DNA of 64,000 nt from the NCBI GenBank assembly GCA_000004985.1, contig GG738847.1; one strand, given 5' to 3'. Source of the stretch: Naegleria gruberi (taxonomy: Eukaryota). A program made the position numbers and the translations under genes. Positions 10,889 to 18,404 of this stretch are shown here, piece after piece (positions within the stretch are counted from its first letter, which is position 1; the number at the start of each line of letters is the position of its first letter). The notes under the pieces are model-generated. The model did no database searches. It was not told where the DNA came from and worked only from the letters and a program-made list of their open reading frames with translations.

Positions 10889-13800
10889 TCAAAATAACCC
10901 TTGTTGGTCCAATTCACTACTATGATAACGCCACAATTTACGTAGCAGTGATCTCTTGTAAGATCTGTAAATTGACCATACAGGATCTGCCATCTTGTCA
11001 CTATATAAGAGAATTCCTTTGAATTCACCAGTTGCCAGCATTTTAACCTTCGCTACAAGATGTGGAACTTTCTCAGTTTGACATAAGTAATAGAAGAGGG
11101 CTATATGAACTCCGTGTCCTCTCTTTCTTCCATAAATTATGCCTGCTGCTTCATAAATGTCACTAGTCGAAGCAAATAATGGACCGAGTTGATTGATTCC
11201 AGATGAATTCATTTCTGTAACGAAATTGGTATATAGCCCATTTCTTCTATTCTTGATGTGTTTTGTTATTGTGGCTCTGAGATGGTCTGTTCGTTGCTCT
11301 GGAGTGGTTGTAAATGGAGAAAGGTATTCACCCTTATCAATGGCATATCTTCTATCTGAATTCTTTTGATGATCAATGGTTTGTGTTAGTAATATTATTT
11401 TGGCAGCATTATCAAGTTCCAATGAAATTTCTGATTGTTGAGAGCCAAACATCCACTGCTTGATTTTGGTGAGATGCTTGTTAATATTCTTATTGTAAAA
11501 TTTATCAAGTTTCTGGAATAATTCTGTGGCTTTTGGAGAAAGTTGAGTCAATTCCAATACATAGTCAATTAAATCTTGATTTTCATCCACAAGTGGCTGA
11601 GAAGTAACAGTTTCAGTTTGTGAAACCTCGTCAGAAACTGTATTCTCTTCAACACCTACAAGTTTTCTCATTATCTCTCCATATTGATATATCTTATCAG
11701 ACGAATTATTTAAAAGTTCCATAAATTTCTCCTTCTTTCTAGAAACAAATTGATTAATCATTGTTTCTGTATCTACATTCAATAATTCGAACCACAAGTC
11801 AACTGAAACTTCTGGAATATTTAGCACAAAAGCTCCCTTTCTTCTCAATTCCTCCTCAGCAATATTCTTAAAGAAGAGATTTGTGTCCACTTGACTATTC
11901 GAAACATCAATCAATCCTATCTTGTTTGAACACAACAGTTGAGTGATAAATACTTCATTGTTAGGGATCACATCAAGTGTTCTACTTTCTGGCAACATGT
12001 TATACTGTGAGAAGAGTTTGGTTAAAGTTTCGGACAATTTCTCCTCCACTTTTTCTGCAGAGCATTCCTTTACAATTTGTAAACAAGTGTCCATGACTAG
12101 TTTCAATCTCAAAGCTTGGAATTCAGTGAGTTGACCTTCTGAACTTTCTTGAAGCAATTTGTACAGTACTAAAAATGGAATGGTCTTGAATTGTTCGAAA
12201 GAGTATCCCATAATATCTAATGTTGCAATGAATCCCAAAATTGGCTTCATCTTTTGTCTTGAAACCCTCCAGTGTTCTTCACTAATGTACAATGGAAGAA
12301 CTGCATTGATACTTTCTCTGGAGGCACCTGAAATAATCTTTGATTGACTGTTCGAAACTTGACCTTGACTTACAGGTACATCTTTGAAACCACCATGTGA
12401 ATCCTCAACATTATAGGCACTTCCAAGTGAGAAAGTCACAGAATCAAGGAAAGATTCGGCAGACATCATAGAGTTGGACACTGAAACAATTTGGACTCTG
12501 CTTGGATCAGCAATTGCTGCCTGAGGACGATTCACTTGTAATCCCAAACAGAGACAGTCCTTATCCTGTAATAGATCAATCCAATTTGAGGTGGTATAGA
12601 AGCATGGACCGATTTCCTCAGCTTGTTTGGAGTATTTTTCCTTAATTTCCGTAAAGTTCATTGAATCTACTGATTCTTGAATGATGTTTTCTGCCTGTTC
12701 GAATAATTCAACATTGGCTTGAGCTCTTAAATCCAATTTCTTTTGTAAGCTTCTCTTTGTGATGGATCTATAAGCAAGAGTATTCAAATTTGCAATCTTT
12801 TCATTAGATAAAGTTCCAACCATTGATTCTGCAAGAATCTTGTTAAAGTTTGCTAAAGATTCAAAAATTGGTTGAATCATTTGATAGAGAGTTCTTCTCA
12901 CTGACTTGTCACGCATCTTTCTAATGTCAGTTGTTATTGATTCAAGCTTTTCTTCAATAGCTTTACACTTGATATGAATTTCCTTAAGGGAAGAGCTGTT
13001 TTTGGTAATTAAACCAGCAGCTTCAATCAAGAACTTTTCAATTATCATGATTTGATAGGATAGTTTTTCAACTGAACTAAGTTCAGGTCTTTTAAATGCT
13101 TCATAGGAAAGTGGAATAATCAACTCATTTTCTCCAAATTCAAGATATAATTCACAATCAGGAGTAATATCAGTATTGATGAGAGATTGAATAATAAATT
13201 CAGATTTGTCATTATCTTGCTCCAACTTGACTCTTTCTCTGAATATTTCATTTCCTTCCTTATTCTTGACAATTAATTGACATGTGAATGAACTTCCCTT
13301 GACTAGTTCAGTCAAACTAGCCATACATGGGGCAATAGAAGAAACTGACTCTGCAAACTGAAAAGAACCTTGAGCAGTTCCCAATCTTGTAATATCTGTC
13401 AATAATCTTGCATCATGAACTGATGTGAAACCAATGGTATGAAATTCATAAGATTCACTCTCAGTATTTAATCGTTCTTGCAATGATTTAATTGACCCTT
13501 CTCTAGTTGAATTTGACGAATATTGATCTTGACCATCGGTAAAGAAAATAATTGCAACTTGTCCATTCAATGAACCACCATAGTTCCGAATAATTTTAAA
13601 AACAGACGAAAAGTCAGTTCCACCTCCAGCACTCACTTTCTTCACAACTTGCAACTTGTTTTCAAGTTCCATATTTGTCATGTCAATTAATTCCGAATTA
13701 CTATCAAAAACAATAAACAAAATTCTCTCATTACAACCTTCAACATTTGACAATAAAGTTTCAAGTGCCAATTTTGCTTCAGAAATTCCACTCCCAGCCA

Positions 13801-14086
13801 TCGATCCCGATTTATCCAAAGCAATAATCAATAATTTTCCTTGATTTTTCGAAGTATGCTGCTGCTGCCAGAACTCATCTCTGATCGCCAACTGAATGCG
13901 AACAATTTCAATTGGCGTTGTTGTAGTAGTATTGGTAGGATCACTCAGAGGCGAAGCAACACTGAAAAATTCTTGTTTGATGACCGACACGAAAAATGAT
14001 GCATCAGTAATTTGTGATTTTTGTTTTGCATTTTTTTTTCTTTTAAAATGTTGTAAACGTGATACGTGAACTTTGCTGATATTCAT
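10889..14086 (-). CDS. large von Willebrand factor A (vWA, MIDAS) domain protein
   Basis: The N-terminal vWA domain has MIDAS residues (LLIIALDKSGSMAG ... AGGGTDFSS ... IFFTDGQD). About 800 aa of unrecognised sequence follow. The true ATG (MNISKVHVS) lies at 14086, downstream of the ORF track's GTG start. Confidence 0.8.
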   Translation of the reverse strand: MNISKVHVSRLQHFKRKKNAKQKSQITDASFFVSVIKQEFFSVASPLSDPTNTTTTTPIEIVRIQLAIRDEFWQQQHTSKNQGKLLIIALDKSGSMAGSGISEAKLALETLLSNVEGCNERILFIVFDSNSELIDMTNMELENKLQVVKKVSAGGGTDFSSVFKIIRNYGGSLNGQVAIIFFTDGQDQYSSNSTREGSIKSLQERLNTESESYEFHTIGFTSVHDARLLTDITRLGTAQGSFQFAESVSSIAPCMASLTELVKGSSFTCQLIVKNKEGNEIFRERVKLEQDNDKSEFIIQSLINTDITPDCELYLEFGENELIIPLSYEAFKRPELSSVEKLSYQIMIIEKFLIEAAGLITKNSSSLKEIHIKCKAIEEKLESITTDIRKMRDKSVRRTLYQMIQPIFESLANFNKILAESMVGTLSNEKIANLNTLAYRSITKRSLQKKLDLRAQANVELFEQAENIIQESVDSMNFTEIKEKYSKQAEEIGPCFYTTSNWIDLLQDKDCLCLGLQVNRPQAAIADPSRVQIVSVSNSMMSAESFLDSVTFSLGSAYNVEDSHGGFKDVPVSQGQVSNSQSKIISGASRESINAVLPLYISEEHWRVSRQKMKPILGFIATLDIMGYSFEQFKTIPFLVLYKLLQESSEGQLTEFQALRLKLVMDTCLQIVKECSAEKVEEKLSETLTKLFSQYNMLPESRTLDVIPNNEVFITQLLCSNKIGLIDVSNSQVDTNLFFKNIAEEELRRKGAFVLNIPEVSVDLWFELLNVDTETMINQFVSRKKEKFMELLNNSSDKIYQYGEIMRKLVGVEENTVSDEVSQTETVTSQPLVDENQDLIDYVLELTQLSPKATELFQKLDKFYNKNINKHLTKIKQWMFGSQQSEISLELDNAAKIILLTQTIDHQKNSDRRYAIDKGEYLSPFTTTPEQRTDHLRATITKHIKNRRNGLYTNFVTEMNSSGINQLGPLFASTSDIYEAAGIIYGRKRGHGVHIALFYYLCQTEKVPHLVAKVKMLATGEFKGILLYSDKMADPVWSIYRSYKRSLLRKLWRYHSSELDQQGLF

Positions 14087-14365
14087 TTCTTCCACATGCA
14101 CTCTCTAGCATTCTGCAATTGCATATGAGGCATGTGTTGATTGTGTTGCTGGTTCAGTGTGGATTTTGCATTCAATGTTAACAGTGCACTATGAGGATTG
14201 ATTGGGAATGGTGATTCAATATTTGATTTCAAATTGTTGTGTGGTTTTCAATGGTTTATTGGGATATTTCTGTATGGGATCACTATTTAATTCTAACTCA
14301 CAACTTCAGCAATATCATATGATTTGAATGTCAAGTGTCAATAGTAGAAACAAATTCATTAAAAA

Positions 14366-16475
14366 ATGTCCTCATTGACGATCATTAAAAAATGTGTCTT
14401 TGGTAGGTAGTACTCTGCTTCAATCATTCGCTCATCAACTTTAGTTGGAAGTTGTTATAGAGAAAAAACAGCACTTCTTTGTACCGTTTCGACTGGAACC
14501 TATCCGGAAGGTAAGTTTCGAATAATTATTTCACAAAAATTGATAACTTTTATAGAATATGTACCTACCGTGATGGATAATCATTATGTTACTTTGAAAT
14601 TTGAAGGAACTTCTTTTTCGTTAGGGTTGTGGGATACGGCTGGTCAAGAAGAGTAAGTTGAAAATTTGGCATTTGACAATTTGACTGTTACTAGATGGGA
14701 GTAAGTATTCAAGTAGAGATCTTTTGTGGATTGATCAAACTAGTCGTTTGAGACCACTTTCTTATCCAGAGTATGTAAAATTCTTTTCATTTCTCAAAAA
14801 CGAAACCTTTCCAATAGAACTAATGTATTTGTTGTTTGTTTTTCAATTGTAGATTACGCATCCTTCACTGATGTCAAGTATAAATGGGTTCCAGAACTCC
14901 ATCATCACTGTCCTGATGCTACAATCATCTTGTGTGCAGTCCAGATTGAACTCAGAAATGACGAAACTAGACGAATTGAAGTCACCAAAGAAATGGCAGA
15001 AGAAATGGCAAAGGAAACCAATTGTGCTGGTTATATCGAATGTTCTGCAAAAAATGGAATTGGAATTAGCGAACTACTCGAAACAATTAAGGAATTTGCA
15101 TTATTTCCTGAGAGAGCAGATAAAAAATCAAAAAAGAAATCTTCAAGCAAATCTGGAATTTTTGGAAGATTGAAGAATGTTTTCCAAGTTAAACCAACTG
15201 GTAATTCACCTAATTCATCTCCAACTATAATGGAATCGAAGCAATCTTCTGACAATTCAACAATTATTCGATTGCCAATGCTTAGTACACCAAATGTCAT
15301 GCCAGATGTCAGAACTACACCAGTAATTGAAGAGAAGCAAGCAAATAGTCCATCAATGTCAAGAGATTTCAATCAAGTTCCATTTGAGGATTGGACAGCT
15401 GAAGAAGTTTCAAAATGGCTTCAATCCAAAGGTTGCAATCAAACAGTCATTGACAGTAAGTATTTCACATGAATATTTTAACAATTGACATTTTCAAGCA
15501 TTGAAGAATAATGATTTTGGAGGAACTGCCCTGCTCTATTGTGATAAACAAGATTTAACAAGTTTGGGAATTTCTTTAGGAAATTCAATTACAATTATGA
15601 AATGGATTGAAAGTTTTAAAAAGAATTCTGACACTGGTTCAGCAACACCTTCATTGGAAAAACAATCTGTTGGAAGCAGTGTTGGTAACTCTTCATCGTC
15701 CTCCTCTGATTTCCCTTCCTCTTTCCAAATGGATTTGAAAGCTAACGAAACTTTTTCCAATAACAATGAAAAGGAGCAAGAAAATGAATTTGAAAAGAGA
15801 TATATCATTTTGGAGAAATTGGGAGAAGGTGGATTTGGAAAGGTCTATAAAGTAAAGACCAAAAAGACAAATCAAATTAGAGCTGTCAAGATTGTTTCAC
15901 CAAGTCAGGATTTCACAATCAATCAGGCCTTATCTGAAGCATTGAAACAAGCTCAATTATATAGAGATGATAATCACATTGTTCACGTGTATGATGTCTT
16001 TATTGCAGTGGAGAATTATGGGCAGATTGTTTGCATTGAAATGGATTGTATGGAGGGAAATCTACGTACAATCTTTAGAGGAAGAAAGGTTTCGGAAGGA
16101 ATGATTTGGTCAATTCTGAGGCAAATTGGAGCTGCTCTCAAGTTCCTTTCTGAGAGTGGAAAGATTGTACACAGAGATATCAAACCAGATAATATTCTTG
16201 TTAAGAAAGTGGATTTTGAAACAGACGAAATTGACGTTTATTTGAGTGATTTCGGATTGGCCAAGTCAACCCAAAATTCCATGCAAACATCACATCTTTC
16301 AGGAACCATTTTCTTCCTAGCTCCAGAAATTCTTGATTTTGGAAATTCATTGAATGGTGAGACATGTCGTACTCCTTATTCGATTGCTTCTGATATATTT
16401 GCACTAGGAGTTTCTCTCTATCAAATTATGTGTCAAACGTTGCATCGTTCCTCGCAACTAGCCAACCTTTCTTAA
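14366..16475 (+). CDS. Rho-family (degenerate) GTPase domain - SAM domain - Ser/Thr protein kinase fusion, 6 exons
   Basis: Exons 14366..14402, 14445..14510, 14556..14652, 14744..14770, 14818..15455 and 15499..16475 sum to 1842 nt with all phases consistent. The Rho domain is collinear with Rac/Rho (YVPTV, WDTAGQE, LRPLSYPE, CFSIV, Rho insert, ECSAK) but has GSCYREKT in place of GDGAVGKT and VQIE in place of TKLD. SAM domain: WTAEEVSKWLQSKG...LLYCDKQDLTSLGI. Kinase motifs: GEGGFGKVYK, AVKIV, HRDIKPDNIL, DFGLAKS, LAPE. Confidence 0.8.
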
Positions 16476-17249
16476 TTTCTTGAATAAATATATGTTACAT
16501 TGCAAATTAATAAAAACAAGATTGAGAACAAGTAATTATACTAATGGGTATTAAAGCTCAGGGACTGTTTCACCTTTAAGGTGATTCAGCCTTGAGACCT
16601 ACCTTAATGGATATAAATATTTATTAAAGATGTGGGCTTTCAAATATTCCCCTTTGGAATCTGACAGCCCGTTGACATTAATTGTTGTGATAATTCAACA
16701 AGAATTTCTTTTCTACTAAAATTTCTACTATATGCACTGGGACAATTCGAATTTCAATATTAAAATAGTTCAAACATTAAGCAAGACAACCATTCAAGAA
16801 TTCCTTTAATTAGTATTTCACTTCTTAAATGTTTTCTTCTTTGTCTTTTGGATCGATCTTAGTAAGTGACATATTTATTATTACTAACATTTTCAAACAG
16901 AAATATTTATTATGGCAAAATCTCTCCGTCCAGATTGTTTTAACCAATTTTTCCTGCTTTGCAGGAGTAGTTCTATTTCAATCTCGATTTTGTAAACAAC
17001 TTTTTTAACTTGCTGAATAAAGTTAATGACCTAAAAAGCAACATTCTGACCAACATATCTCATCCTTTTGGAAGAAGAATATATTGAGTAAGCTTCTACC
17101 TAATAGTTTATCAACGATTGTCTAGATTGTTTTATTGTTTCTTTTGGAGAAATAAGCTTAATACCTAAAAACAGCAGTAACCAAGTTACAAACCACCTTA
17201 TTGTATATTTATTAAATGGAATATTTTTTATGATAAATTTTTAACAAAA

Positions 17250-18404
17250 TTAAAATCCAAATTGTTCATCACTAAATGGTGACGAATACATGACATCCCA
17301 TGATCTCTTATCAACAATGCAAACGGATCCGTCTTGTTTGAAATCTTCACTACTCACACAATAAGGAGTTACCCACTCTGGTACTGATGTTAAAATATTG
17401 GCTCCCATATATCTCAAAATTGCTCTGTCAGAGCATTTAACAGACATCTCATTAAATGTAATCTCATCAAGTAAAAGTGCCAATTCCTTGTTCAATCGTT
17501 CGGTAAAATTATTCATCATGGTTGTTCCTCCAGAGAGAATTATATTATTGGAAAGATCGAGAGAATCATCATTAATTTTAGTAATGCATTCCTTGACCAA
17601 TTGTGGAATAGATGAGCAATTATTGGTAAAGAGTATTTCAGATACTTGTTTGAATTCTTCCTTACATTCTCCAATGTTAATTGTCACTGTATCAGTCACA
17701 TTGAAACTCTCATAAAGTGGGAAATTCTCACAGGTGGCACTCACATATTTTGCCTTGAGTCTATTCACAATTTCATCTGAAAAGATATTCGAATCGTGCT
17801 TTTCAAAATGTTTCTGTAAAGAATTCTTTAACTTTTCTGTCAAGTGTCTTCCACTCACACTTCCAATACACAGTGAATCCATTCTCACTTGGCCATCCAC
17901 AACAGCAATCACATACGAAGAATTCTCTCCAACATGAACAACCAATCCAGACATGAACTCCACTCCACTTGCAACCAAACTCATATAAGCAGCATCTTGA
18001 ATCGACAAGTGAGAAATCTTGAAATCTTCAAACAAGACTTTACAAATCACTTCTCTCCTTTTCAAATCATCAACATGATCCAATGGAGAATCAATAATCA
18101 AAACAGATTCCAAATTATTATCCTTTTCAATATTCAACACTTCCAAAGCCTTTGAAATATTTAATTTGAGTTCTTCCGAATATTTTACTAATTTTCCTTC
18201 AGCATCATTATCATCATCATGAAGAATATTAATTTTACGGAATGATCGGGATGGTCTATCTTCCATGATATTTGTCTTTCCACATCGAATGGTGGATTGA
18301 CTAGATAGATCAATGATAATTGCAGATGATGTTGATTGGGAATTATTTGCGAGCCAATCTTCAAAGTTTGATGAAGTAAATTCTGTGCTTTCAAAATTTT
18401 CCAT
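17250..18404 (-). CDS. actin-related protein (divergent Arp)
   Basis: Actin-fold signatures: IIIDLSSQSTIRCG at the N-terminus and LSGGTTMMNNFTERLNKEL at the C-terminus (actin has LSGGTTMYPGI). 384 aa. Too divergent to be Arp2/3. Confidence 0.8.
   Translation of the reverse strand: MENFESTEFTSSNFEDWLANNSQSTSSAIIIDLSSQSTIRCGKTNIMEDRPSRSFRKINILHDDDNDAEGKLVKYSEELKLNISKALEVLNIEKDNNLESVLIIDSPLDHVDDLKRREVICKVLFEDFKISHLSIQDAAYMSLVASGVEFMSGLVVHVGENSSYVIAVVDGQVRMDSLCIGSVSGRHLTEKLKNSLQKHFEKHDSNIFSDEIVNRLKAKYVSATCENFPLYESFNVTDTVTINIGECKEEFKQVSEILFTNNCSSIPQLVKECITKINDDSLDLSNNIILSGGTTMMNNFTERLNKELALLLDEITFNEMSVKCSDRAILRYMGANILTSVPEWVTPYCVSSEDFKQDGSVCIVDKRSWDVMYSSPFSDEQFGF

What the first reader, a model, noticed from the sequence alone, without database searches (positions are those of the whole stretch)
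14366..16475. Rho-like pseudoGTPase fused to a SAM domain and a Ser/Thr kinase in one 6-exon gene
Hand-splicing yields a 613-aa protein whose first ~190 aa are collinear with Rac/Rho. Switch I (YVPTV), DTAGQE, LRPLSYP, the Rho insert and SAK are all present. The P-loop, however, is GSCYREKT, equivalent to G12C and G15E, and the NKxD guanine-specificity box is VQIE. A canonical Rho cannot bind nucleotide normally with both changes, so the domain looks like a pseudoGTPase or an unusually regulated one. It is joined through an S/T-rich linker to a SAM domain, which itself straddles a 43-nt intron, and to a complete protein kinase. A Rho-SAM-kinase architecture does not match ROCO (LRR-Roc-COR-kinase) or any standard Rho effector. 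This is the most novel-looking locus in the window.
Basis: partly seen in the sequence, partly recalled or inferred. Interest (0 to 1): 0.75.

Follow-up and report, generated by a model that had tools for sequence, protein, structure and literature searches.

The report
Disabled Rho-like domain–SAM–truncated kinase gene
One Naegleria gruberi gene, of which the public annotation appears to record only the last 292 codons, joins a Rac/Cdc42-like domain with a broken nucleotide-binding loop to a SAM domain and a protein kinase that lacks its last quarter; the fusion is real but has no orthologue and may be decaying.

Summary
The locus is real and is best read as one gene. The window is Naegleria gruberi: the annotated 'protein kinase' XP_002682211.1 (292 aa) is 100% identical to window 15597-16472. 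It starts at an internal Met inside the SAM domain. No annotated protein covering the upstream Rho-like exons turned up. The P-loop GSCYREKT (G12C, G15E), VQIE, intact switch I/II, SAK, and a SAM domain split by a 43-nt intron are all confirmed.

Four corrections:
1. A 7-exon model with a 6-nt microexon (ATGGGA, restoring EEWD, like Rho EDYD) fits better than the 6-exon model.
2. Cdc42 itself has TQID in this box, so VQIE amounts to T115V plus D118E.
3. The Rho insert is 8 residues short.
4. The kinase is not complete. It stops 11 residues after helix alphaF, lacks subdomains X-XI, and no remnant of them exists elsewhere in the window.

No orthologue with this architecture was found in the protein collections (which hold N. 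fowleri, N. lovaniensis and Willaertia proteins) or in metagenome contigs. The nearest kinases are Naegleria/Willaertia paralogues (39-47% identity) with other N-terminal modules and complete kinase domains.

Verdict: a lineage-specific chimeric gene, either a scaffold built from two disabled enzyme domains or a decaying gene. Moderate interest.

The parts
14366..16475 (+). Whole coding region, 7 exons: 14366-14402, 14445-14510, 14556-14652, 14695-14700, 14744-14770, 14818-15455, 15499-16475 (stop 16473-16475). Product is 615 aa. Introns are 42, 45, 42, 43, 47 and 43 nt, all GT..AG.
   Evidence: The frame is open across exon 5 (212 codons) and exon 6 (324 codons). With the window-wide stop frequency of 0.058 per codon, P(no stop) is about 3e-6 and 4e-9 respectively.
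14390..15091 (+). Rac/Cdc42-like G domain (aa 9-169), interrupted by five introns.
   Evidence: Pfam Ras 122 bits. Best solved relatives are Cdc42 and Rac1, E about 5e-48. 43-50% identity to Heterolobosean, choanoflagellate and human Rac/Cdc42.
14447..14470 (+). Degenerate P-loop (G1) GSCYREKT, aa 14-21. Changes are D11S, G12C, A13Y, V14R and G15E in Cdc42 numbering. Lys16 and Thr17 are kept.
   Evidence: The length is identical to the canonical loop, so this is not a splice-site artefact.
14695..14700 (+). Proposed 6-nt microexon ATGGGA, flanked by TACTAG| and |GTAAGT. It supplies the codons for E67 (partly), W68 and D69 (partly) in switch II.
   Evidence: +9.5 bits on a Rac HMM. Intron lengths become uniform. 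GTAAGT is rare in the window. Not verified by transcript data.
14939..14950 (+). G4 box VQIE (aa 119-122), in place of T(K/Q)xD.
   Evidence: Asp118 is 100% conserved in 64 Rac/Cdc42-type sequences and is Glu here.
15110..15391 (+). Polybasic stretch (KKSKKK, 15122-15139) followed by a Ser/Thr/Pro/Asn-rich linker. There is no CAAX box.
   Evidence: Read directly from the translation. The CAAX Cys is 100% conserved in the reference set and absent here.
15392..15602 (+). SAM domain (aa 270-325), split by the 43-nt intron 15456-15498.
   Evidence: Pfam SAM_2 and SAM_1 pass threshold only when the two halves are joined. If the intron is retained, a stop follows after 'VIDSKYFT'.
15801..16442 (+). 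Ser/Thr protein kinase domain, subdomains I-IX only (aa 392-605). GEGGFGKV, VAIK-Lys (AVKIV), HRDIKPDN, DFG, APE and the alphaF helix are present. Subdomains X-XI are absent.
   Evidence: Pfam Pkinase positions 1-195 of 263. The CaMK1G alignment stops at chain residue 202. The last helix of the AF2 model is alphaF, residues 263-280 of P0121. Foldseek aligns about 215-220 columns to kinase chains of 260-300 residues.
16440..16475 (+). Eleven-residue tail LHRSSQLANLS plus the TAA stop. An AATAAA lies about 10 nt further downstream.
   Evidence: The annotated protein ends at the same stop.
15597..16475 (+). Extent of the existing public gene model (XP_002682211.1 / EFC49467.1 / D2V050_NAEGR, 'protein kinase', 292 aa). 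It starts at Met324, inside SAM helix 5.

Best explanation
This is one Naegleria gruberi-specific chimeric gene, under-annotated in the public record. It encodes a 615-aa protein.

Domain order:
1. A Rac/Cdc42-derived G domain whose Walker-A loop (GSCYREKT) and guanine-specificity Asp (D118E) are altered. Switch I, switch II and the SAK box are kept.
2. A polybasic stretch followed by an S/T-rich linker in place of the CAAX tail.
3. A SAM domain.
4. A Ser/Thr kinase with every catalytic motif, but cut off after helix alphaF.

Shown here: the architecture, the motif changes and the truncation.

Inferred mechanism:
- The G domain no longer cycles with GTP. It would be nucleotide-free or locked, a class-i-like pseudoGTPase, and would act as a constitutive Rho-shaped docking surface.
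- The SAM domain would provide oligomerisation or partner recruitment.
- The truncated kinase, lacking alphaG-alphaI and the subdomain-XI Arg, is at best weakly active.
- The protein would therefore work mainly as a scaffold or decoy in Rho-type signalling rather than as a switch-controlled kinase.
For: - Organism and annotation gap.
- Single gene: exons 5 and 6 physically link Rho to SAM and SAM to kinase. The SAM halves complement each other across a canonical 43-nt intron (12.4 + 15.3 bits becomes 31.9 bits). All six introns are 42-47 nt GT..AG. GTAAGT is enriched in this gene.
- G-domain changes.
- 49 of 73 columns that are at least 90% conserved in Rac/Cdc42 are retained, including DTAGQ, RLRPLSYP, KWVPE..HHCP and CSA. 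The fold-defining core is therefore kept while the phosphate and guanine contacts are hit.
- Long open frames: about 4e-9 chance for exon 6.
- Kinase catalytic motifs are intact, but the domain ends at Pfam position 195 of 263.
- No C-terminal kinase signal in any frame anywhere in the window.
- Degenerate Rho P-loops with a non-Gly residue at position 15 recur elsewhere: Anaeramoeba ignava GDQESKKT with TQSE, and teleost GDAEVEKT.
Against: - No transcript evidence was available, so the exon junctions, the microexon and the 3' end are all predictions.
- No orthologue was found, so there is no evolutionary evidence of constraint.
- 24 of 73 highly conserved Rac/Cdc42 positions differ, including the effector residues F37M and Y40H. 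This equally fits relaxed selection.
- From general knowledge, not checked here: a eukaryotic protein kinase domain lacking subdomains X-XI has no known active precedent outside atypical kinases such as RIO and Bud32.
- Nucleotide binding was not and cannot be tested here.
- The public annotation treats the kinase part as a separate gene.
Confidence: 0.55

Rival explanations
1. This is a decaying or never-functional chimeric gene. A Rac gene fragment, a SAM module and a partial copy of a Naegleria kinase were joined recently. The broken P-loop, shortened Rho insert, lost CAAX and missing kinase C-terminus are all symptoms of relaxed selection. There is no specific mechanism.
For: - No orthologue turned up among the proteins searched, which include N. 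fowleri, N. lovaniensis and Willaertia.
- All close paralogous kinases have complete domains, to Pfam position about 259 of 263. This copy alone is truncated.
- A third of the highly conserved Rac positions are changed.
Against: - There are zero stops or frameshifts in 615 codons, and six intact splice-site pairs, in a 34% GC genome where 5.8% of random codons are stops.
- All kinase catalytic residues and both switch regions are intact.
- The region downstream of the stop shows no recognisable kinase remnant. The truncation is therefore not a fresh nonsense mutation, yet the upstream frame has stayed open.
Confidence: 0.3
2. The G domain is still a working, unusually regulated nucleotide switch, for example with altered nucleotide specificity or low affinity. 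It would control the fused kinase in cis, a Rho-type analogue of ROCO proteins.
For: - Lys16, Thr17, Thr35, DTAGQ (including Gln61) and SAK are all retained.
- D118E keeps a carboxylate.
- Cdc42 itself tolerates Q in the G4 box.
- Rho-kinase fusions with canonical P-loops exist: Anaeramoeba flamelloides P0035 and Diversispora P0115.
Against: - Gly15 of GxxxxGK[ST] is invariant in all 64 reference sequences and is Glu here. Positions 12-14 carry the bulky residues Cys, Tyr and Arg.
- The supposed output domain, the kinase, is truncated.
- There is no COR dimerisation domain.
Confidence: 0.12
3. There are two separate genes, as the public annotation implies: an unannotated Rho-like gene ending at the stop inside the retained 43-nt intron, and a kinase gene starting at Met324.
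For: The public model XP_002682211.1 starts at 15597. Retaining the intron gives a stop at 15470-15472.
Against: - This would cut a SAM domain in two, leaving each half below detection threshold.
- The kinase ORF stays open for 32 codons upstream of Met324, with SAM homology.
- No intergenic space or promoter-sized gap exists.
- The intron has the same size and GTAAGT donor as the others.
Confidence: 0.05

Closest known systems
Rac/Cdc42 subfamily of Rho GTPases (human Cdc42, Rac1; Naegleria fowleri and Willaertia magna Racs)
   Same: Same fold family. 43-50% identity. Switch I (YVPTV), switch II (DTAGQE..RLRPLSYP), KWVPE..HHCP and CSAK are kept. There is a Cdc42-like Q in the G4 box and a polybasic stretch after the domain.
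   Different: Walker A is GSCYREKT instead of GDGAVGKT. Also D118E and T115V. The Rho insert is 8 aa shorter, there is no CAAX box, and the domain is fused to further domains.
ROCO proteins (LRRK2, Dictyostelium Roco kinases): Roc GTPase-COR-kinase
   Same: A Ras-superfamily G domain and a protein kinase lie in one polypeptide, with the G domain N-terminal to the kinase.
   Different: The G domain is Rho-type (Pfam Ras 122 bits vs Roc 48 bits). There is no COR and no LRR. SAM sits between the domains. The kinase's nearest solved relatives are CaMK/CDPK and STE20-type kinases (SLK, STK10, MST1), not kinases of the LRRK2 type, and it is truncated.
PseudoGTPases (class i, e.g. AAGAB psGD, PMC12490416; p190RhoGAP pG domains, recalled from general knowledge)
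   Same: A GTPase fold whose G1 and G4 motifs no longer fit the consensus, embedded in a larger protein and presumed to act as an interaction module.
   Different: Those are biochemically shown to lack nucleotide binding; here that is only inferred. This domain keeps G2, G3 and G5 almost perfectly, which is unusual for class i.
Yeast Cdc42-Ste50(SAM/RA)-Ste11(SAM-kinase) module and SAM-containing MAP3Ks (recalled from general knowledge: a lead, not a test)
   Same: It combines a Cdc42-like surface, a SAM domain and a Ser/Thr kinase, the three parts that in yeast are brought together in trans.
   Different: Here they are fused in cis. The SAM_Ste50p match is only 14.8 bits, below the cut-off of 21. 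The kinase is not specifically STE11-like.
Other database Rho fusions and degenerate Rho domains: Anaeramoeba flamelloides P0035 (Rac-kinase), Diversispora epigaea P0115 (kinase-Rho), Anaeramoeba ignava P0001 (four Rho-like domains with GDQESKKT / TQSE)
   Same: Rho domain and kinase in one predicted protein (P0035, P0115). Non-Gly residues at P-loop positions 12 and 15 together with D118E (P0001).
   Different: None has a SAM domain. P0035 and P0115 have canonical P-loops. P0001 has no kinase. None is closer than about 46% identity, so these are parallels, not orthologues.

Membership tests
Rho family small GTPase | Ras-superfamily G-domain fold with best similarity to Rho/Rac/Cdc42 | tested here: met
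   Pfam Ras 1.7e-35. The top 60 PDB sequence hits are all Cdc42 or Rac1, 5e-48 to 1e-44.
Rho family small GTPase | G1 / Walker A motif GxxxxGK[ST] | tested here: not met
   GSCYREKT: the second Gly (position 15) is Glu and position 12 is Cys. These columns are 98-100% conserved in 64 references.
Rho family small GTPase | G4 box [NT][KQ]xD with the guanine-specifying Asp | tested here: not met
   VQIE. Asp118 is 100% conserved in the references and is Glu here.
Rho family small GTPase | G2 Thr35, G3 DxxGQ and G5 SA[KL] | tested here: met
   YVPTV, DTAGQE and CSAK are all present.
Rho family small GTPase | Rho insert helix (about 13 aa between beta5 and alpha4) | tested here: not met
   An 8-residue gap relative to Cdc42/Rac1 at this position.
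Rho family small GTPase | C-terminal CAAX prenylation box | tested here: not met
   The Cys column is 100% conserved in the references and absent here. The sequence continues into the linker.
PseudoGTPase (class i) | GTPase fold that neither binds nor hydrolyses nucleotide | not testable with these tools
   Only the motif changes are seen. The spliced G domain could not be submitted for structure prediction because the tools reject non-contiguous window sequence.
ROCO protein | COR domain following the Roc G domain (plus LRR or other repeats) | tested here: not met
   The Pfam scan of the full protein lists no COR or LRR. The Roc hit (48 bits) lies under the stronger Ras hit.
Eukaryotic protein kinase (ePK) | Subdomains I-IX with catalytic residues (Gly loop, VAIK Lys, HRD, DFG, APE) | tested here: met
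   Pfam Pkinase 1.9e-38. The motifs are located. The AF2 model has pLDDT above 85 for most of the domain.
Eukaryotic protein kinase (ePK) | Complete C-lobe: subdomains X-XI (alphaG-alphaI, conserved Arg of XI) | tested here: not met
   The profile match ends at 195 of 263. The near-invariant Arg column has no residue in this protein. The last helix of the model is alphaF. No remnant is found in any frame of the window.
SAM domain | Match to the SAM profile above the curated threshold | tested here: met
   SAM_2 31.9 bits (cut-off 20.5) and SAM_1 28.6 bits (cut-off 23), on the spliced sequence only.

The most novel reading that the evidence does not exclude
The protein is expressed and functional as a Rho-type counterpart of ROCO proteins. 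A nucleotide-independent, or unconventionally regulated, Rho-shaped domain and a SAM oligomeriser would control in cis a minimal kinase that works without subdomains X-XI. That would be a previously undescribed signalling architecture and a natural 'Rosetta stone' for a Cdc42-SAM-kinase pathway in Heterolobosea.
Probability: 0.12. Interest if true: 0.65.

Novelty: new variant of a known kind. Interest (0 to 1): 0.4.

Why it matters
**Practical value.** This corrects a gene model. XP_002682211.1 appears to be the 3' fragment of a 615-aa multidomain protein, and a probable 6-nt microexon is involved.

**Biological value.**
- Multidomain Rho proteins are rare. From general knowledge, RhoBTB is the familiar example.
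- G-domain/kinase fusions are known mainly from ROCO proteins.
- A Rho-like domain with a selectively disabled Walker A but preserved switch regions, fused to SAM and a kinase, would be a useful natural example of how GTPase folds are repurposed as nucleotide-independent modules.

**Limits.** The gene is confined to one species as far as could be searched, its kinase is truncated, and nothing shows that it is expressed.

Tried and rejected
1. **Decayed kinase remnant after the stop.** I thought I saw subdomain XI downstream ('LKLRDCFTFK' in the kinase frame plus 'DSALRPTLMDI' in the +2 frame, 16545-16625). Appending the frame-corrected tail did not raise the HMM score: 162.5 vs 163.2 bits, and 198 of 200 shuffled tails scored as high or higher. 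An HMM built from close Naegleria-type paralogues also found nothing. Rejected.
2. **Weak hit at 16964-17134.** It scored -0.9 bits against HMM positions 205-260. It ranks 17th among background hits over the whole window. Rejected as noise.
3. **Alternative splice choices around the P-loop.** A donor at 14407 or an acceptor after TTATAG gives either a stop or a shortened loop (my reading of the sequence). Kept.
4. **N. lovaniensis P0350 as a possible orthologue.** It is 58% identical over the C-lobe. Its locus L001 carries NHL/EGF modules upstream and no Rho or SAM. It is a paralogue family, not an orthologue.
5. **Insertion of a mobile element causing the truncation.** The 775 nt downstream have no other copy in the window and no significant terminal repeats. 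No support.
6. **Searches that returned nothing.**
   - Exact look-ups of the neighbouring actin-like ORF and of P0121 in assembly collections.
   - The metagenome scan.
   - Literature searches for the accession or for this architecture.
8. **Caveat on the word-index search.** One search did not list P0121 even though it is 100% identical to part of the query. 'No annotated Rho-part protein' is therefore not absolute.
Full report
**What is there**

The region 14366-16475 (+ strand) lies in a 33-34% GC eukaryotic window. The organism is Naegleria gruberi. The database protein 'protein kinase [Naegleria gruberi]' (P0121 = XP_002682211.1 / EFC49467.1 / D2V050) is 100% identical to window 15597-16472. 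It comes from a 941,567-bp contig.

That public model begins at an internal Met (MKWIESFKK). Two protein searches found no annotated N. gruberi protein covering the upstream exons. One caveat applies: the word-index search also failed to list P0121 itself.

**Gene model**

Splicing at GT..AG sites gives an open frame from ATG 14366 to TAA 16473-16475.
- The 91-nt 'intron 3' contains TACTAG|ATGGGA|GTAAGT.
- Using ATGGGA (14695-14700) as a microexon gives introns of 42, 45, 42, 43, 47 and 43 nt.
- It restores switch II to DTAGQEEWDRLRPLSYP (consensus DTAGQEDYDRLRPLSYP).
- It raises the score on a Rac-family HMM from 207.8 to 217.3 bits.
- GTAAGT occurs only 12 times on the + strand of the 64-kb window, and four of these are donors in this gene.

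The product is 615 aa.

**One gene or two**

- Exon 5 (14818-15455) is one ORF running from Rho strand beta4 through the linker into the first half of a SAM domain.
- Exon 6 (15499-16475) is one ORF running from the second SAM half through the kinase.
- Alone, the halves score 12.4 bits (SAM_2, profile positions 4-20) and 15.3 bits (SAM_1, positions 31-61). Both are below threshold.
- Joined across the 43-nt intron they score 31.9 bits (SAM_2, positions 4-62, cut-off 20.5).
- If the intron is retained, a stop follows at once.
- The upstream neighbour, a VWA-domain protein on the minus strand, starts 265 nt before the ATG. The downstream neighbour is a minus-strand actin-family ORF.

The architecture Rho-like then SAM then kinase is therefore well supported from sequence alone. 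No transcript data could be consulted.

**The G domain**

Pfam Ras matches aa 9-169 at 1.7e-35. The best solved relatives are Cdc42 and Rac1. Identity is 43-50% to Willaertia, N. fowleri, choanoflagellate and human Rac/Cdc42.

- The P-loop is GSCYREKT against an invariant GDGAVGKT. The changes are D11S, G12C, A13Y, V14R and G15E, with no change in length.
- The G4 box is VQIE. Because Cdc42 itself has TQID, the real departures are T115V and D118E. Asp118 is 100% conserved in 64 references.
- Thr35, DTAGQ, RLRPLSYP, KWVPE..HHCP and CSAK are kept.
- The Rho insert is shorter by 8 residues.
- The CAAX box is gone, though a polybasic KKSKKK remains.
- Overall, 49 of 73 columns that are at least 90% conserved are retained. 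The losses include F37M and Y40H in the effector region.

From established knowledge of Walker-A geometry, Glu at position 15 together with bulky residues at positions 12-14 should prevent normal phosphate binding. This is inference, not a test.

Comparable degenerate Rho loops exist elsewhere. Anaeramoeba ignava P0001 has four tandem Rho-like domains with GDQESKKT and TQSE. Teleost proteins have GDAEVEKT.

**The kinase**

All catalytic motifs are present: GEGGFGKV, AVKIV, HRDIKPDN, DFG and APE. The domain nevertheless matches Pfam Pkinase only to position 195 of 263.
- It ends 11 residues after helix alphaF.
- The alignment to CaMK1G stops at chain residue 202.
- The subdomain-XI Arg column, more than 90% conserved in 98 homologues, has no counterpart here.
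- The AlphaFold2 model of P0121 (mean pLDDT 79, kinase part mostly above 85) ends with alphaF.
- Foldseek aligns about 215-220 columns to kinase chains of 260-300 residues.

HMMs built from distant and from close homologues found no subdomain X-XI signal downstream in any frame, nor anywhere else in the window. My own impression of a decayed remnant failed a shuffle test.

**Relatives**

An exhaustive HMMER search with exon 6 found P0121 itself and then only paralogues:
- N. gruberi NAEGRDRAFT_67434 (44% identity, with Sel1 repeats) and NAEGRDRAFT_33549 (42%).
- Willaertia magna proteins (39-41%).
- N. lovaniensis proteins.

The nine close relatives scanned with Pfam carry other N-terminal modules (Sel1, ankyrin, TPR, DUF4116, NHL/EGF), and eight of the nine have kinase domains complete to profile position 259-263, the ninth reaching 251.

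The best partial match is N. lovaniensis P0350, 58% identical over the C-lobe. It sits downstream of NHL/EGF modules with no Rho or SAM nearby. A metagenome scan found nothing. Literature searches found no description of this protein or architecture. Rho-kinase fusions do exist in databases (P0035, P0115), but they have no SAM domain and their P-loops are canonical.

**Interpretation**

Most likely this is a lineage-specific chimeric gene. Its Rho-like module has lost nucleotide cycling and serves as a docking surface. SAM gives oligomerisation or recruitment. The truncated kinase contributes little or no catalysis, so the protein would be a scaffold built from two disabled enzyme domains.

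The main rival is that the gene is simply decaying or never became functional. The lack of orthologues, the truncation and the many changes at conserved Rac positions argue for that rival. Two observations argue against it:
- 615 codons and six splice-site pairs are intact in a genome where 5.8% of random codons are stops.
- No recognisable remnant follows the stop, which implies the frame stayed open after an old truncation.

A still-functional atypical switch, analogous to ROCO, cannot be excluded but is less likely. The two-gene reading of the public annotation is unlikely because it would split the SAM domain.

**Verdict**

It is a new variant among G-domain/kinase fusions and atypical Rho proteins. 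Interest is moderate until expression and conservation are shown.

Noticed in passing
window 14695-14700: A probable 6-nt microexon (ATGGGA), flanked by 42- and 43-nt introns with consensus TACTAG / GTAAGT sites. Such tiny exons are easily missed by gene predictors and may be one reason the Rho-like exons appear to have no annotated model.
   Followed up: partly
window 15597-16475: The public N. gruberi model XP_002682211.1 starts at an internal Met inside SAM helix 5. It appears to be a 3' fragment of the larger gene.
   Followed up: yes
P0001 (Anaeramoeba ignava, 888 aa; not in the window): Four tandem Rho-like domains, each with the P-loop GDQESKKT and TQSE in the G4 box. These are the same kinds of changes seen here (non-Gly at positions 12 and 15, D118E), so this may be a separate family of Rho-derived pseudoGTPases.
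   Followed up: partly
P0011, P0021, P0002 (teleost proteins; not in the window): Tandem Rho-like proteins in fishes (Siganus, Menidia) with P-loops GDAEVEKT, GDAVVEKT and GDQESQKT. Position 15 is Glu or Gln.
   Followed up: no
L001 1-2422 (N. lovaniensis PYSW02000009.1): Two adjacent gene calls, an NHL/EGF protein (1-1710) and a 186-aa kinase fragment (1862-2422), look like one receptor-type kinase gene that was split. The Gly-rich loop is in frame +3 at 1656-1733 and the rest of the kinase is in frame +2 from 1724. This suggests an unrecognised short intron or a frameshift.
   Followed up: partly
window 10889-14101 (-) and 17250-18404 (-): The neighbours are apparently intron-free: a 1070-aa ORF with a VWA domain and a 384-aa actin-family (Arp-like) ORF. 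The finding's gene has six introns, five of them in the Rho-like part.
   Followed up: partly
window 16478-16491 / 16617-16630: A 14-nt AT-rich inverted repeat (93% complementary, 125 nt apart) lies just after the stop codon. An AATAAA sits about 10 nt after the stop. Possible 3'-end signals, or chance in AT-rich DNA.
   Followed up: no
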